Counted from the stretch's first letter, positions 5,031 to 11,088 are shown. The stretch is 11,088 bases of DNA from a virus (IMGVR_UViG_2744054872_000001:1-11088); one strand, 5' to 3'. Notes: generated by a model not told the origin, from the sequence alone. Program-made: numbers and translations.

Positions 5031-5312
5031 ATCATATTGACCTTTTAATCGTTCAGGCTTATAGTTCCGCCGTCGTAGCAAATTCTGCGACCGGGTTTAG
5101 CAGCCTGAATGATTGTGCGGACAGCCGCAGATATCCGATATTGCGGTATTTTTGTGTCCGTAAAACCGCGTTACGCCCAAATTATGGTGGGACGTGATGG
5201 GGAGGCTTCGGCCTGCTGGTTTCACAATCGCCAGTCTGCTAACCCCGTCACGTCCTGCCACCTGTTTAGCAGCGGGTAGCAGGTTGTTAAACCTGATTGT
5301 GAGGCCGTAACT

Positions 5313-7558: not shown

Positions 7559-8059
7559 ATGCTGGCTAAAGTCACTTTCCTGAGCTGTATAACGATGAGC
7601 GATTTTACTTTTTCTGGCTATGAATTGGCCTGCTTTGTAACACACTCCGGTCTATCCCGTAGCGCCGGGCATATCCTGTCGCAATGTGCAAATCTCGCGG
7701 CAACAACCAGTGAATACTTCATTCACAAGCCTCACCGCCTGATCGCGGCAGAAACTGGTTATAGCCAATCAACCGTCGTTCGTGCATTCCGTGAAGCTGT
7801 AAACAAAGGAATCCTGTCTGTAGAGATTGTTATCGGCGATCACCGTGAACGTCGCGCTAACCTGTACCGGTTTACACCATCCTTTTTGGCCTTCGCACAA
7901 CAAGCCAAAAATGCGCTGACTGAAAGCAAATTAAAGATCTCTTCAGCGGCAACCAAGGTTAAAGCTGTTATCGCTAAGACATTGGCTTTATTTAATTTTA
8001 TATCCACACCCCATGTCAAAATGATACCCCCTCCCCCTGTCAGGATGACGTGGCAATAA
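7559..8059 (+). CDS. Putative helix-turn-helix DNA-binding protein (166 aa; start may instead be ATG 7595)
   Basis: HTH-like segment AETGYSQSTVVRAFREAVNKGIL; ATG 7559 sits inside hairpin 7548-7565, so the start is uncertain. Confidence 0.4.
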   Translation: MLAKVTFLSCITMSDFTFSGYELACFVTHSGLSRSAGHILSQCANLAATTSEYFIHKPHRLIAAETGYSQSTVVRAFREAVNKGILSVEIVIGDHRERRANLYRFTPSFLAFAQQAKNALTESKLKISSAATKVKAVIAKTLALFNFISTPHVKMIPPPPVRMTWQ

Positions 8060-8403
8060 AGAATAAGAAGTCACAAGTTAAAAAAACAAAAAGATCAGTT
8101 TCCGGCGGTGCCGGAACGTCCAGACTCAAAAAATTGACTTCATGGATCGCTGAGGCAAAAGCAAAGGCTGACAATCTGCGGTTATCCCAAAAACGCGCTC
8201 AAAAACATGAGTTCAAGCAGAAAGTAGAGGCGGCTGCGCGGAAATATGCTTACCTGAAGAACAAGCGTTCGCCTGATATTGGCGGGATATCAAACTTCGA
8301 TAACCTACCGCATTGCATGACGGTAAACGAAGCTCTTAATGCGGTTTTAGCCAAAAATAAAGATAACGATCAATGGGGTATACCGGCGGGATTCAGAGGG
8401 TGA
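8050..8403 (+). CDS. Basic lysine-rich hypothetical protein (117 aa), GTG start overlapping the upstream stop
   Basis: ORF begins with GTG at 8050 and overlaps the previous ORF by 10 nt; K/R-rich; no family recognised. Confidence 0.3.
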   Translation: MAIKNKKSQVKKTKRSVSGGAGTSRLKKLTSWIAEAKAKADNLRLSQKRAQKHEFKQKVEAAARKYAYLKNKRSPDIGGISNFDNLPHCMTVNEALNAVLAKNKDNDQWGIPAGFRG

Positions 8404-8553
8404 TAGATTGCTCTAATCTGGAGTCACCTGGCGTTTTCAGTATGGATTTTCTTTGGCGCGGTCTGGCCATTAGGGATCATGTTTGCTGCAACGTTTCTTC
8501 TGATGTGGGTATTCACCCTTCCAGGTGATTTCTATAGAAAAAAAGCCAGACAT

Positions 8554-8562
8554 TGATACAAT
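8554..8562 (+). promoter_or_regulatory. Candidate hok mRNA promoter: extended -10 TGaTACAAT, predicted start near G8569/8570
   Basis: TG at 8554-8555 plus TACAAT 8557-8562; predicted start coincides with the 5' element GGGUGCUUGAGG (8569-8580), which is complementary to the 3' element at 10289-10301. Confidence 0.4.
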
Positions 8563-8631
8563 CGCTGCGGGTGCTTGAGGCTATCTGCTTCAGGCATTAC
8601 CCGAAAAGCAGATAGAAGAAAGCCCCAGATA

Positions 8632-8690
8632 ACATTACGCGTCCTGCAAGACGCTTAACATTAATCTGAGGCAATATCTATGCTTAGCAT
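8632..8690 (-). ncRNA. sok: Sok-like antisense RNA (approximate ends) complementary to the mok SD and start region
   Basis: Minus-strand TTGACC (8724-8719), 18-bp spacer, weak -10 TAATCT (8700-8695); predicted transcript covers mok SD 8668-8671 and ATG 8680-8682; ends in hairpin GCGUC-UUGCAG-GACGC (8656-8641). Position inferred from hok/sok family architecture. Confidence 0.5.
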
Positions 8691-8886
8691 ACGTAGATTA
8701 GCCTCTTACCGACCAAAAGGTCAAGGAGAAGCAGGCTATGAAGCAGCAAAAAGCGATGTTAATCGCTCTGATCGTCATCTGTTTAACCGTCATTGTGACG
8801 GCACTGGTAACGAGGAAAGACCTCTGCGAGGTACGAATCCGAACCGGCCAGACGGAGGTCACTGTCTTCACAGCCTACGAATCTGA
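8680..8886 (+). CDS. mok: Mok-like overlapping reading frame (68 aa) that overlaps hok in another frame
   Basis: ATG 8680 with GAGG 8 nt upstream; covers hok in a different frame and ends 7 nt before the hok stop, as expected for mok. Confidence 0.6.
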   Translation: MLSIRRLASYRPKGQGEAGYEAAKSDVNRSDRHLFNRHCDGTGNEERPLRGTNPNRPDGGHCLHSLRI

Positions 8887-8893
8887 AAGGTAA
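8738..8893 (+). CDS. hok: Hok/Gef-family type I membrane toxin, 51 aa: MKQQKAMLIALIVICLTVIVTALVTRKDLCEVRIRTGQTEVTVFTAYESER
   Basis: Own translation of 8738-8893; AAGGAG 10 nt upstream; single TM helix plus the conserved RKDLCEV...R.G...V.F.AYE motif; close to HokC/HokD as recalled, exact paralog not assigned. Confidence 0.9.
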   Translation: MKQQKAMLIALIVICLTVIVTALVTRKDLCEVRIRTGQTEVTVFTAYESER

Positions 8894-8915
8894 GAGACCT
8901 GGCGGGGAGAGATCC

Positions 8916-10253
8916 CATAAGCGCTAACTTAAGGGTTGAACCATCTGAAGAATGCGACGCCTCGGTGCCTCGTTAAGACGATGCCTCGCGTTCTTCAATT
9001 GCGTTTTGTAGGCTGTCAGGGATACTGTCCCACGAATGGCCACCTGTAAGCTCCAGATGACCATTTTTGTTATTCTCCACAACGAGTTAGTTCTTCTTTT
9101 CGGATCCGGCACTTCTGGGGGGGAAATCCAGCGATGGCTGGATTATGTCGTCAATTAAAAATGCGGCGAGTAGATTAGCAAATATCCACGCTTTCGCGAG
9201 TTCAGGTTCCTTTGCACGCAAAGCATCCAGGTGCAGCAAACTTTTGAGCCGCTTAAAAGCCAGTTCAATTTGCCATCGCAGACGGTAACAATCAGCCACT
9301 TGCTCTGCTGAATATTCATCTTCCGGTAATGATGTTAGCAATAGCACATGGCCCGCTGCTTCCAGCGTTTCCGCCTGAACTACTCGTCCTTTTCGACGAT
9401 TCTCGCTGAGCAGTCGGGTTTTACTGATTAATGCTTTTTCGGGAGGAAGTGATACGGCAATGAGACGTGCCGGAAAGGGAGCTCCGGCTTTTTTATTACC
9501 TGAATTGCCTATCATTACAGTGGTTTCACCGTTCTTACCGCAATCCAGCCCGCGCAGAAAACCCATCATGTCAAAGCGCATTCCTTCTGCAGTTAACCAG
9601 CGCAATCCTCGCCAGTGAACCCGGACGATATAATCAGCTTCTCCAAAAGCAAGTGAGCGGATACATTCGGGACGCGAACCGAATCCCCGGTCAGCAATGC
9701 GTATCTCGTCTGCCGTTTGCGCAAATCGGTCCAGCCGTTCAGCGTCTCTGCTGTCGGTTAGCTCAAAATCAGTGAACTGACAGGTATGAGGATCATATCC
9801 CATATGTAGTCGCCATTCAGCGCTGCCGCCCCCGGGCGCACTGATTGCTGTTCCATCGACAAGACGCAATCTCTTTCCGCTTGTACAACCCGTAACTGCG
9901 GCGCGTACAGCAAGTGTTTGTGCGGCAAGTATGCCAAACCAGTCGGCGGCATTCCGCAGCCGCTTCAGGAGAGCCACGTCAGATAATGTTGCAACGTCAT
10001 GGAGCTGAGCCCATGCAGTGACTTCACGTAATGACATCCCCCCGGGCCGTAAGCCAGCCCCAGACGTAGCAGAGTTGCAGCATCACGAATTTCGCGGCGG
10101 CGGGTTAGAGCCCCGGCATTACGTGCCGAAGTATCCAGTTCTTCGGGCTTACCAATATGGGCCAGAATTGCTGACCAGTTATCGTGAGAGTAATTCATCG
10201 GCACGTTAAATCATATCAGGCGTAATACCACAACCCTTAAGTTAGCGCTTATG
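8916..10253 (-). mobile_element. IS186 (IS4 family), complete 1338-bp copy with terminal inverted repeats and 10-bp target duplication GGAGAGATCC
   Basis: Left end CATAAGCGCTAACTTAAGGGTTG (8916-8938) and right end CAACCCTTAAGTTAGCGCTTATG (10231-10253) are reverse complements; direct repeats GGAGAGATCC at 8906-8915 and 10254-10263; encoded protein matches IS186 InsL as recalled. Confidence 0.9.
9087..10198 (-). pseudogene. insL: IS186 transposase InsL, reading frame broken by a 1-nt deficit in a G-run (plus-strand C6 at 10038-10043)
   Basis: N-terminal 54 aa MNYSHDNWSAILAHIGKPEELDTSARNAGALTRRREIRDAATLLRLGLAYGPGG (from ATG 10198) are in one frame and MSLREVTAWAQLHD... (9087-10037) in the +1 frame; one extra G would restore a 370-aa ORF. 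Could be a true mutation or a homopolymer sequencing error. Confidence 0.8.
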
Positions 10254-10311
10254 GGAGAGATCCCCGCCACTCTTCGTGTGTCAGGTATCCTCAATGCACC
10301 CTTTCCTCTCC

Positions 10312-10338
10312 AAATAAAAAAGCTCCCGAAGGAGCTTT
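10312..10338 (-). terminator. Rho-independent terminator (AGCUCC-UUCG-GGAGCU + UUUUUUAUUU on the minus strand); likely bidirectional between the hok 3' end and the convergent minus-strand gene
   Basis: Perfect 6-bp stem 10321-10336 with tetraloop; strong U-tract on the minus strand, weaker on the plus strand. Confidence 0.6.
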
Positions 10339-10357
10339 AAAATACAAGGGATGACTC

Positions 10358-10708
10358 TTAATCCCACTCAATCCAGTTGTAGACGATACGAAGTGACGGG
10401 CGCACAGCGGCAGTCACATCTTCGGTACTAAAGTCGATTGCATCACTGTAGATTTTGCAGTCCAACATTTCAATTGTTGTAGCAGCTTTTGTCACAGCGT
10501 TAACCCCGGAAGCTTTGGATTCAGGGGTAGCAGCCATCGTGATATCAACATAGTCCTTCGCCGCAATGCGATCCTTAATGAACTGAAGAATATCGCCTTC
10601 GATAGTCTCCACGCACTGGACCTGGATTTCCCCAGAGTTTCGAATTGCTCCGTGCTGGTTGAACTTCACACCATTCGGACCATAGTCCTCCACATCCTCT
10701 CGAGTCAT
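10358..10708 (-). CDS. Hypothetical protein (116 aa from ATG 10708); the frame stays open upstream into the IS3-family end, so this may be a 5'-truncated remnant
   Basis: Stop at 10358-10360 followed by the terminator; no SD before ATG 10708; the frame is open from 10709 to the IS boundary at 10785. Confidence 0.4.
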   Translation of the reverse strand: MTREDVEDYGPNGVKFNQHGAIRNSGEIQVQCVETIEGDILQFIKDRIAAKDYVDITMAATPESKASGVNAVTKAATTIEMLDCKIYSDAIDFSTEDVTAAVRPSLRIVYNWIEWD

Positions 10709-10784
10709 TTCAGGGATTTGCGACGTGCGAACCAGTACGCTGATATCTTCATGGCCTGCAAAAGTGAGCTGGAATTCAGAAGAT

Positions 10785-11088
10785 TGAACCGCCCCGGAAA
10801 TCCTGGAGACTAAACTCCCTGAGAAAGAGGTAAACAGGATGACTAAAAATACTCGTTTTTCCCCCGAAGTCCGTCAGCGGGCGATTCGTATGGTTCTGGA
10901 AAGTCAGGATGAATATGACTCACAGTGGGCGGCAATTTGTTCCATTGCCCCAAAGATTGGCTGTACGCCGGAGACTCTGCGTGTCTGGGTTCGCCAGCAT
11001 GAGCGGGATACCGGGGGCGGTGATGGTGGGCTCACCAGCGCTGAACGTCAGCGTCTGAAAGAGCTGGAACGTGAAAATCGTGAACTGC
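10785..11088 (+). mobile_element. Left end of an IS3-family element (IS629/IS1203/IS3411-like), running off the window
   Basis: Terminal TGAACCGCCCCGG... at 10785 followed 53 bp later by an OrfA start; protein [64 protein letters not shown]...ELERENREL matches IS3-family OrfA as recalled. Confidence 0.8.
10838..11088 (+). CDS. IS3-family transposase OrfA (HTH + leucine zipper), 3'-partial at window end
   Basis: ATG 10838 with AAGAGG 8 nt upstream; open to the end of the window. Confidence 0.85.

What the first reader, a model, noticed from the sequence alone, without database searches (positions are those of the whole stretch)
8554..10340. hok/mok/sok locus split by IS186, separating complementary 5' and 3' mRNA elements
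The hok transcript architecture can be reconstructed from sequence. The promoter is an extended -10 at 8554-8562, giving a start near 8569. The 5' element GGGUGCUUGAGG (8569-8580) is complementary to CCUCAAUGCACCC (10289-10301), as 12 bp with a one-base bulge. This is what the known hok tac/fbi fold-back mechanism predicts. IS186 plus its 10-bp duplication sits between them, 22 bp after the hok stop. Without the insertion the mRNA would be about 394 nt. With it, hok transcripts should lose the 3' fold-back element and read antisense into the transposase gene.
Basis: partly seen in the sequence, partly recalled or inferred. Interest (0 to 1): 0.6.

Follow-up and report, generated by a model that had tools for sequence, protein, structure and literature searches.

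The report
IS186 splits a plasmid hok/sok locus

Summary
The window is a P1-like (IncY) phage-plasmid. It carries a Hok/Gef toxin ORF (8738-8893), an overlapping mok ORF, a Sok region on the minus strand and an extended -10 promoter. A 5' element (8569-8580) has its best partner in the whole window at 10289-10301: 12 bp with one bulged U. IS186 (8916-10253, duplication GGAGAGATCC) lies between them, 22 nt after the hok stop. An otherwise identical plasmid has the empty site. The reconstructed RNA folds end to end (z = -8.9). Most of the hok loci checked, from Escherichia to Photorhabdus, keep the pairing, with compensatory changes.

IS186 sits in the loop of the conserved 3' stem-loop GGCGGGG-N6-CCCCGCC, a canonical IS186 target, so the hairpin is broken as well. 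K-12 hokC and hokE carry IS186 at exactly the homologous position. About 40% of plasmid copies of this locus carry the same insertion, which was reported for pSvP1 without mention of hok.

The likely result, inferred only, is loss of the stable inactive hok mRNA pool and of post-segregational killing. This is a new member of a known kind, of low to moderate interest.

The parts
8535..8562 (+). hok promoter: -35-like TAGAAA (8535-8540), 16-nt spacer, extended -10 TGATACAAT (8554-8562)
   Evidence: Promoter scan. A -10-like hexamer lies 6-7 nt upstream of the GGG start in the homologous loci.
8569..8580 (+). Predicted hok mRNA 5' end and tac element GGGUGCUUGAGG
   Evidence: The Rfam RF01794 hit starts exactly at 8569. 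It pairs with 10289-10301. It is conserved in homologues.
8622..8626 (+). ucb-like box GCCCC. It pairs with the mok Shine-Dalgarno in the full-length fold and with tac in some folds that lack fbi.
   Evidence: MFE folds and the RNAalifold consensus, pairs 56-58 with 104-107.
8612..8688 (-). Putative Sok antisense RNA, about 77 nt, 5' end near 8688. Its promoter is TTGACC (8724-8719), 17 nt, CTAATC (8701-8696).
   Evidence: Mapped by alignment to the annotated K-12 sokC. Expression was not tested.
8680..8886 (+). mok ORF (68 aa) overlapping hok; Shine-Dalgarno GAGG at 8668-8671
   Evidence: ORF list and translation.
8738..8893 (+). hok toxin ORF, 51 aa, annotated HokD
   Evidence: Pfam PF01848 HOK_GEF, 78.7 bits. 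RefSeq annotation WP_001313475.1.
8901..8915 (+). Left half of the split 3' stem-loop GGCGGGG-AGAGAT-CCCCGCC, including the left target-site duplication GGAGAGATCC (8906-8915)
   Evidence: The intact hairpin is -19.3 kcal/mol and the left-junction remnant -10.0.
8916..10253 (-). IS186, 1338 bp. Inverted ends are 8916-8938 and 10231-10253. The transposase is on the minus strand, split into ORFs 9965-10204 and 9087-10037 by a 1-nt deletion at 10043.
   Evidence: Identical to K-12 IS186A except for that one base. DDE_Tnp_1 domain. Annotated as frameshifted.
10254..10268 (+). Right target-site duplication GGAGAGATCC (10254-10263) and the right arm of the split stem-loop
10289..10301 (+). fbi element CCUCAAUGCACCC, now orphaned 1.4 kb from the rest of the mRNA
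   Evidence: Homology with other hok loci ends exactly at 10301.
10319..10338 (.). Hairpin AAAGCTCC-CGAA-GGAGCTTT. It scores as a terminator for the convergent minus-strand gene and is only a weak terminator for hok.
   Evidence: Terminator scan.

Best explanation
This is a complete hok/mok/sok type I toxin-antitoxin module carried between repL and bplB of a P1-like phage-plasmid. IS186 transposed into the loop of the GC-rich stem-loop that lies 8 nt after the hok stop codon. At the DNA level that stem-loop is a canonical IS186 target, GGGG(N6)CCCC. The insertion does two things. It moves the 3' fbi element 1.35 kb away from the 5' tac element it normally pairs with, and it breaks the stem-loop that protects the 3' end of the processed hok mRNA. 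Shown here: the anatomy, the empty site, the conserved and covarying end pairing, and the identical insertion point in K-12 hokC and hokE. Inferred from the R1 hok/sok model: transcripts from the interrupted locus cannot adopt the closed, stable, untranslatable full-length fold. They would fold into local 5' structures, bind Sok or be degraded quickly, and leave no long-lived mRNA reservoir. The locus would then no longer kill plasmid-free segregants, while staying harmless as long as Sok is made.
For: Hok matches PF01848. The Rfam hok-leader model scores 114 bits starting at 8569. The IS has 23-bp inverted ends, a 10-bp duplication and 1338/1339 identity to K-12 IS186A. The empty site is 100% identical in pXD35003. 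The end pairing appears in the MFE fold, z = -8.9, and is the unique best partner in the window. It is kept in 31 of 36 homologous loci, with GGGUGC/GCACCC changing to GGGCGC/GCGCCC and other compensatory changes. K-12 hokC reads GGCGGGGAGTGATCC|IS186|GGAGTGATCCCCGCC and hokE reads GCGGGGAGTAATCC|IS186|GGAGTAATCCCCGC, the same position. The IS186 target GGGG(N6/N7)CCCC is published (PMC5009759), and the hok hairpin is the only such site in the window. Mutations that weaken the last stem-loop of truncated R1 hok mRNA abolish toxicity (PMC9841398). The K-12 hok loci are described as non-functional, some of them because of insertion elements (PMC7232551, citing Pedersen and Gerdes 1999). Without fbi the 5' end folds locally, and no substitute partner exists in the IS (best -13.3 against -20.5 kcal/mol).
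Against: No transcript ends, RNA levels, toxicity or plasmid-stability data exist for this locus, so the functional consequence rests on analogy with R1 and K-12. MFE folds of interrupted transcripts switch between two local 5' structures depending on the assumed 3' end, so thermodynamics does not say whether the mok Shine-Dalgarno is open. The 3' end of the intact mRNA is not defined by sequence: the + strand has only a weak terminator after fbi. A remnant hairpin of -10 kcal/mol survives at the left junction, and a strong IS hairpin (8946-8997, -25 kcal/mol) could stabilise some chimeric transcripts.
Confidence: 0.8

Rival explanations
1. The interrupted locus is still a working toxin-antitoxin system with changed behaviour. 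Transcripts lacking fbi would be constitutively in the open form, kept in check by Sok, and stabilised by the IS186 end hairpin. The module would then respond faster to loss of Sok, for example during phage attack or stress, instead of acting as a slow post-segregational killer.
For: The promoter, mok, hok and Sok region are all intact in the window. The IS-bearing allele is common, about 161 plasmid records against 217 with the empty site, so it is not strongly counter-selected. The IS end contains a strong hairpin. A secondary source says K-12 gef with IS186 is still transcribed and regulated by its antisense RNA (PMC3562002).
Against: The K-12 loci with IS elements are described as non-functional (PMC7232551). 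Weakening the 3' stem-loop alone abolished R1 hok toxicity (PMC9841398). Some IS-bearing alleles carry changes at regulatory positions, such as G8670C in the mok Shine-Dalgarno of p4M18F. That would fit relaxed selection, but it was not tested.
Confidence: 0.13
2. The 5'/3' complementarity is a chance match, and the IS simply landed in an intergenic spacer with no RNA function.
For: A 12-bp match with a bulge could occasionally arise by chance in 11 kb.
Against: It is the single best partner in the window by about 5 kcal/mol. It sits exactly at the end of the block conserved among hok loci. It is kept with compensatory substitutions across Escherichia, Kluyvera, Citrobacter, Pantoea and Photorhabdus.
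Confidence: 0.02
3. The IS is an assembly artefact, or a laboratory-acquired insertion confined to one sequenced isolate.
For: IS186 is active in laboratory E. coli and hits hot spots repeatedly (PMC5009759).
Against: The same junction occurs at 100% identity in about 161 PLSDB plasmids from E. coli, E. albertii, E. fergusonii, Shigella, Salmonella and Cronobacter. It has a clean duplication in all six other plasmids examined. It was reported independently for pSvP1 (PMC6906374).
Confidence: 0.01

Closest known systems
E. coli K-12 hokC (gef)/mokC/sokC with IS186A
   Same: IS186 is inserted at exactly the homologous base of the homologous GGCGGGG-N6-CCCCGCC hairpin, in the same orientation, with a 10-bp duplication (GGAGTGATCC against GGAGAGATCC here). 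The fbi (CTTCAACGCACCC) is stranded on the far side.
   Different: It is chromosomal (dnaJ-nhaA region), not on a phage-plasmid. Hok is about 82% identical. The leader lacks the 18-nt extra hairpin present here. The K-12 IS has an intact transposase.
E. coli K-12 hokE/sokE with IS186B
   Same: IS186 is in the same position of the equivalent hairpin (GCGGGG-AGTAAT-CCCCGC) 7 nt after the stop codon.
   Different: The IS is in the opposite orientation, and the Hok protein is much more divergent.
hok/sok (parB) of plasmid R1
   Same: The architecture is the same: a hok ORF with overlapping mok, antisense Sok over the mok start, tac/fbi end pairing, ucb pairing with the mok Shine-Dalgarno, and a GC-rich 3' stem-loop (mechanism as summarised in PMC9841398; elements found).
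   Different: R1 is uninterrupted and experimentally characterised. No R1 sequence was aligned here, so the comparison is by element, not by alignment.
hokD (relF) and hokW-type loci of Qin/Rac and lambdoid prophages
   Same: These are the closest Hok proteins (96% identity) and share about 88% DNA identity from the -10 box to the end of fbi.
   Different: K-12 hokD lacks the whole 5' part; the match starts near window 8724. The prophage hairpins (GGCGGGGGAGAAATCCCTCGCC) do not fit the IS186 motif.
IS186B insertion reported in P1-like plasmid pSvP1 (Venturini et al. 2019, PMC6906374)
   Same: It is the same insertion. The reported 10-bp direct repeat GGATCTCTCC is the reverse complement of the duplication here. 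[quoted passage not shown]
   Different: The paper does not mention hok, mok, sok or the RNA elements. It attributes the replacement of rlfA, rlfB and pmgF to the IS, whereas IS-free relatives already carry hok in that place.

Membership tests
hok/sok type I toxin-antitoxin | Small (about 50 aa) membrane toxin of the Hok/Gef family | tested here: met
   PF01848, 78.7 bits against a cut-off of 22.
hok/sok type I toxin-antitoxin | A mok reading frame overlapping hok, with its own Shine-Dalgarno upstream | tested here: met
   ORF 8680-8886 overlaps hok 8738-8893, with GAGG at 8668-8671. GAGG is invariant, and an ATG at the aligned mok-start position is present in nearly all 28 aligned loci.
hok/sok type I toxin-antitoxin | A cis-encoded antisense Sok RNA covering the mok translation start | tested here: inconclusive
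   Homology to annotated K-12 sokC maps a 77-nt RNA to 8688-8612 (minus strand), with a TTGACC-17-CTAATC promoter like that of K-12. The -10 is weak and was not picked up by the scan. Transcription was not tested.
hok/sok type I toxin-antitoxin | 5' tac element complementary to a 3' fbi element (mRNA end pairing) | tested here: met
   12 bp plus one bulge, present in the MFE fold. It is unique in the window and conserved and covarying in homologues.
hok/sok type I toxin-antitoxin | ucb box sequestering the mok Shine-Dalgarno in the full-length fold | tested here: met
   GCCCC (8622-8626) pairs with the Shine-Dalgarno region in the MFE fold and in the RNAalifold consensus. This is a prediction only.
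hok/sok type I toxin-antitoxin | Slow 3' processing to an active mRNA, and post-segregational killing | not testable with these tools
   This needs Northern or RACE data and plasmid-loss assays.
IS186 (IS4 family) | About 1.34 kb with 23-bp terminal inverted repeats CATAAGCGCTAACTTAAGGGTTG | tested here: met
   1338 of 1339 nt identical to K-12 IS186A.
IS186 (IS4 family) | A single DDE transposase ORF | tested here: not met
   The DDE_Tnp_1 domain is present, but the ORF is broken by a 1-nt deletion at 10043. This is a defective copy of IS186, not a different element.
IS186 (IS4 family) | Insertion at GGGG(N6/N7)CCCC with a duplication made of the core plus flanking G/C | tested here: met
   The target is GGGGAGAGATCCCC and the duplication is GGAGAGATCC. 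The motif comes from PMC5009759.

The most novel reading that the evidence does not exclude
The conserved 3' stem-loop of hok mRNAs doubles as a high-affinity IS186 landing site, making hok loci natural IS186 traps. Repeated, independent IS186 capture would then be a general and possibly selected route by which chromosomes and phage-plasmids silence hok modules. Three results are compatible with this. IS186 sits at the same base in three different hok loci: hokC, hokE and this one. About 40% of plasmid copies are occupied. The occupied allele occurs on at least three flank haplotypes, each with an IS-free counterpart.
Probability: 0.3. Interest if true: 0.45.

Novelty: new member of a known kind. 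Interest (0 to 1): 0.25.

Why it matters
It adds a plasmid-borne, widely spread example to the K-12 cases of hok loci disabled by IS186 without any damage to the toxin gene. It also gives a simple reason for the recurrence: the RNA hairpin that hok needs is, as DNA, the IS186 consensus target. For annotation, 'hokD' on these IncY/P1-like plasmids should not be counted as a working addiction module without checking for the IS. For experiments, pTetA_020022-type and pXD35003-type plasmids are a natural pair that differ in the compared flanks only by the IS. They could be used to test what the fbi element and the 3' stem-loop contribute in a native context.

Tried and rejected
(1) I looked for a substitute fbi inside IS186. 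The best duplex with tac is -13.3 kcal/mol (8958), against -20.5 for the true partner, so this was rejected.

(2) I used MFE folding of interrupted transcripts of eight assumed lengths to decide whether the mok Shine-Dalgarno opens. The result flips between the local 5' hairpin (nt 20-34) and the tac/ucb stem, so it is not decisive.

(3) I tried to obtain the primary papers. SaiSree 2001 (PMC95536) is not held, and Pedersen and Gerdes 1999 was not found in the library. I relied on secondary citations (PMC7232551, PMC3562002) and on direct comparison with the K-12 sequence.

(4) I asked whether a single origin or recurrent insertion explains the spread. All seven IS-bearing plasmid copies compared (the window plus six others) share site, orientation and duplication. 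They lie on different flank haplotypes that also exist without the IS. Recombination and recurrent insertion cannot be separated with these data.

(5) The Rfam 'sok' hit was first taken as locating the Sok gene. It lies on the hok-sense strand, in K-12 as well, so Sok was mapped from the K-12 annotation instead.

(6) The + strand terminator for hok was not resolved. The scan finds only a minus-strand terminator at 10338-10319, plus a terminator-like site inside the IS at 9469-9488.

Full report
**Context.** The whole window is 100% identical to part of the 91-kb plasmid pTetA_020022 of E. coli SCEC020022 and to a dozen similar plasmids. The annotated neighbours are icd, two KilAC antirepressor genes, repL and P1-type morphogenesis genes. 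Rfam finds the P1 C4 antisense RNA and its a1/b1 targets at 5059-5265. The element is therefore a P1-like (IncY) phage-plasmid. In this lineage the hok locus lies between repL and bplB, where phage P1 itself has rlfA, rlfB and pmgF (PMC6906374).

**Check of the observation.**
- The promoter scan finds TAGAAA-16-TACAAT with a TG (TGATACAAT, 8554-8562).
- GGGTGCTTGAGG is at 8569-8580 and CCTCAATGCACCC at 10289-10301.
- The hok ORF is 8738-8893 (51 aa) and the overlapping mok ORF is 8680-8886. Hok matches Pfam HOK_GEF at 78.7 bits.
- The insertion is 8916-10253, 1338 bp, with 23-bp inverted ends and the duplication GGAGAGATCC on both sides. It starts 22 nt after the hok stop codon.
- The insertion differs from K-12 IS186A by one missing base at 10043. 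That deletion splits the transposase ORF on the minus strand.

**Is the reconstruction right?** Joining 8915 to 10264 gives a sequence that matches plasmid pXD35003 at 100% in one piece, so a true empty site exists. The 385-nt RNA from 8569 to 10301 folds with nt 1-12 paired to nt 373-385, with U379 (window 10295) bulged. The MFE is -156.9 kcal/mol and z = -8.9 against shuffles. In the same fold GCCCC (8622-8626) pairs with the mok Shine-Dalgarno region. That is the closed state described for R1 hok mRNA (PMC9841398). When the 12-nt 5' element is scanned against every 14-mer of the window, 10289-10301 is the best partner at -20.5 kcal/mol. The next unrelated site scores -15.6.

**Is the pairing conserved?**
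- A scan of species-representative genomes with the Hok protein returned 47 loci from Escherichia, Shigella, Kluyvera, Citrobacter, Pantoea, Photorhabdus and Erwinia.
- In 31 of the 36 loci examined (the reconstructed window plus 35 of these), a 5' element lying 6-7 nt after a -10-like hexamer forms a duplex of -17 to -25 kcal/mol with a 3' element. That element ends 57-69 nt after the hok stop.
- The changes are compensatory. Escherichia has GGGUGC/GCACCC, while Photorhabdus and Pantoea have GGGCGC/GCGCCC. GAGG/CCUC becomes GAGA/UCUC, and one Citrobacter locus has GAAG/CUUC.
- RNAalifold on 28 distinct sequences puts the end pairing into the consensus structure. For pair 4/405 it counts UA 16, CG 10, UG 1 and CA 1.
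- The five exceptions include K-12-type hokD copies that lack the 5' half.
- DNA homology between this locus and prophage hok loci runs from the -10 box to 10301 and stops there.

- *The insertion point is not an arbitrary spot in a 3' UTR.* It is the loop of the hairpin GGCGGGG-AGAGAT-CCCCGCC, -19.3 kcal/mol when intact, which is conserved across the aligned hok loci. In R1, mutations that weaken the corresponding last stem-loop of the processed mRNA abolish toxicity, which the authors attribute to exonuclease attack (PMC9841398). After insertion only a -10 kcal/mol remnant is left at the left junction.
- *The hairpin is a canonical IS186 target.* As DNA it matches GGGG(N6/N7)CCCC, a motif found only 54 times in the K-12 genome and hit repeatedly in mutation-accumulation lines (PMC5009759). 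It is the only such site in the window. Of 37 hok loci sampled, 24 carry the motif after the stop codon, and one more is already occupied by IS186.
- *K-12 shows the same event twice.* IS186A in hokC and IS186B in hokE sit at exactly the homologous base. The duplications are GGAGTGATCC and GGAGTAATCC. hokC has the same IS orientation as here and hokE the opposite one. The K-12 hok loci are described as non-functional, some of them through insertion elements (PMC7232551, citing Pedersen and Gerdes 1999). IS186 downstream of gef/hokC is said to disrupt fbi (PMC3562002).
- *This insertion has already been published.* It was reported for plasmid pSvP1 as IS186B with 10-bp repeats GGATCTCTCC, the reverse complement of the duplication here. 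The paper does not mention hok (PMC6906374; pSvP1 is a junction hit).

**Sok.** The Rfam family named 'sok' (RF01794) matches 8569-8743 on the + strand, from the predicted mRNA start to the hok start codon. In K-12 it also matches the hokC-sense strand, opposite to the annotated sokC gene. So the hit marks the hok leader, not the antisense gene. Aligning the K-12 leader to the window maps Sok to the minus strand, from 8688 down to 8612 (77 nt; the extra length is an 18-nt hairpin absent from hokC). The promoter TTGACC-17-CTAATC closely resembles that of K-12. Expression was not tested.

**Spread.**
- The 240-nt hok-IS186 junction is present, with at least 80% of the query covered, in 161 PLSDB plasmids.
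- A 242-nt query centred on the empty site is present in 217 plasmids. About 40% of plasmid copies therefore carry the IS. These are rough counts and include redundant records.
- Six further IS-bearing plasmids from E. coli, Salmonella and Cronobacter have the same site, orientation and duplication. Four of them have an intact 1339-bp IS, and one has a different 1-nt deletion.
- The occupied allele occurs on at least three flank haplotypes, each of which also exists without the IS. Either the hot spot was hit more than once or the allele has spread by recombination. I could not separate these two explanations.

**Mechanism.**
- *Shown here:* the anatomy, the empty site, the conserved pairing and the target motif.
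- *Inferred from the R1 model (PMC9841398):* without fbi the 5' end cannot lock the mRNA into the closed, stable form. In MFE folds of interrupted transcripts the 5' end pairs locally, either with nt 20-34 or with the ucb box, depending on the assumed 3' end. No substitute partner exists in the IS. Together with the broken 3' hairpin, this should remove the long-lived hok mRNA pool on which post-segregational killing depends.
- *Uncertain:* how far transcripts read into the IS. A secondary source, however, reports that the equivalent K-12 gef transcript ends inside IS186 about 200 bp after the stop, near the end of the transposase ORF (PMC3562002). The length of the intact mRNA is also uncertain: 385 nt to the end of fbi, or 424 nt to 10340, just past the next hairpin.

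**Verdict.** The finding is a further, plasmid-borne and common, example of a known kind. The link between the hok hairpin and the IS186 consensus target is the only element that adds something, and it is modest.

Noticed in passing
window 5059-5111 and 5180-5265 (+): Rfam finds the P1 immunity C4 antisense RNA (69.8 bits) and its a1/b1 target (55.5 bits) upstream of icd and the antirepressor genes. This identifies the window as a P1-like ImmI region.
   Followed up: partly
window 8569-8743 (+); L003 1702-1854 (-): The Rfam family RF01794, named 'sok antitoxin', matches the hok-sense leader from the mRNA 5' end to the hok start codon. In K-12 it lies on the strand opposite to the annotated sokC. 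A hit therefore marks the hok leader, not the Sok gene or its strand.
   Followed up: yes
window 8438/8439: Compared with P1-like relatives such as MH422554, the window lacks 143 bp, which truncates a small ORF between repL and the hok promoter. The deletion is shared by the empty-site plasmid pXD35003 and leaves the hok promoter untouched.
   Followed up: partly
window 7559-8403 (+): repL, annotated as 'MarR family transcriptional regulator', is frameshifted into two ORFs (7559-8059 and 8050-8403). The lytic replication gene of this phage-plasmid therefore looks defective.
   Followed up: no
window 10043; L059 at the position equivalent to 9117: The IS186 transposase is broken by a 1-nt deletion in the window lineage. 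An ETEC plasmid carries a different 1-nt deletion, and four other plasmids have the intact IS at the same site. The IS copies appear to be decaying independently after insertion.
   Followed up: partly
window about 10785-11088 (+); L001 13839-17088: Identity with related plasmids stops at 10784, and an IS3-family transposase gene begins at about 10839. The neighbouring minus-strand gene, a bplB homologue (510 nt in relatives), is shortened to ORF 10358-10708, annotated as 255 nt. Further on, the IS3 element itself carries a group II intron with ltrA.
   Followed up: no
L060 (p4M18F) and L058 (Salmonella plasmid), positions equivalent to window 8670, 8689 and 8693: Some IS-bearing alleles carry substitutions at regulatory positions: G8670C in the mok Shine-Dalgarno GAGG, and changes at 8689 and 8693 next to the predicted Sok start. 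This may reflect relaxed selection after interruption, but the sample is too small to say.
   Followed up: no
L009-L015, L017, L018 (chromosomal hokD-type loci): The 3' hairpins of prophage hokD-type loci (for example GGCGGGGGAGAAATCCCTCGCC) keep a stem but do not fit the IS186 target GGGG(N6/7)CCCC. The hokC-type and plasmid loci do fit it.
   Followed up: no
L005, L054, L008 compared with the window, L059 and L060: The IS186-occupied allele sits on at least three different flank haplotypes, each of which has a near-identical IS-free counterpart. This points to repeated insertion at the hot spot, or to recombination between plasmids.
   Followed up: partly
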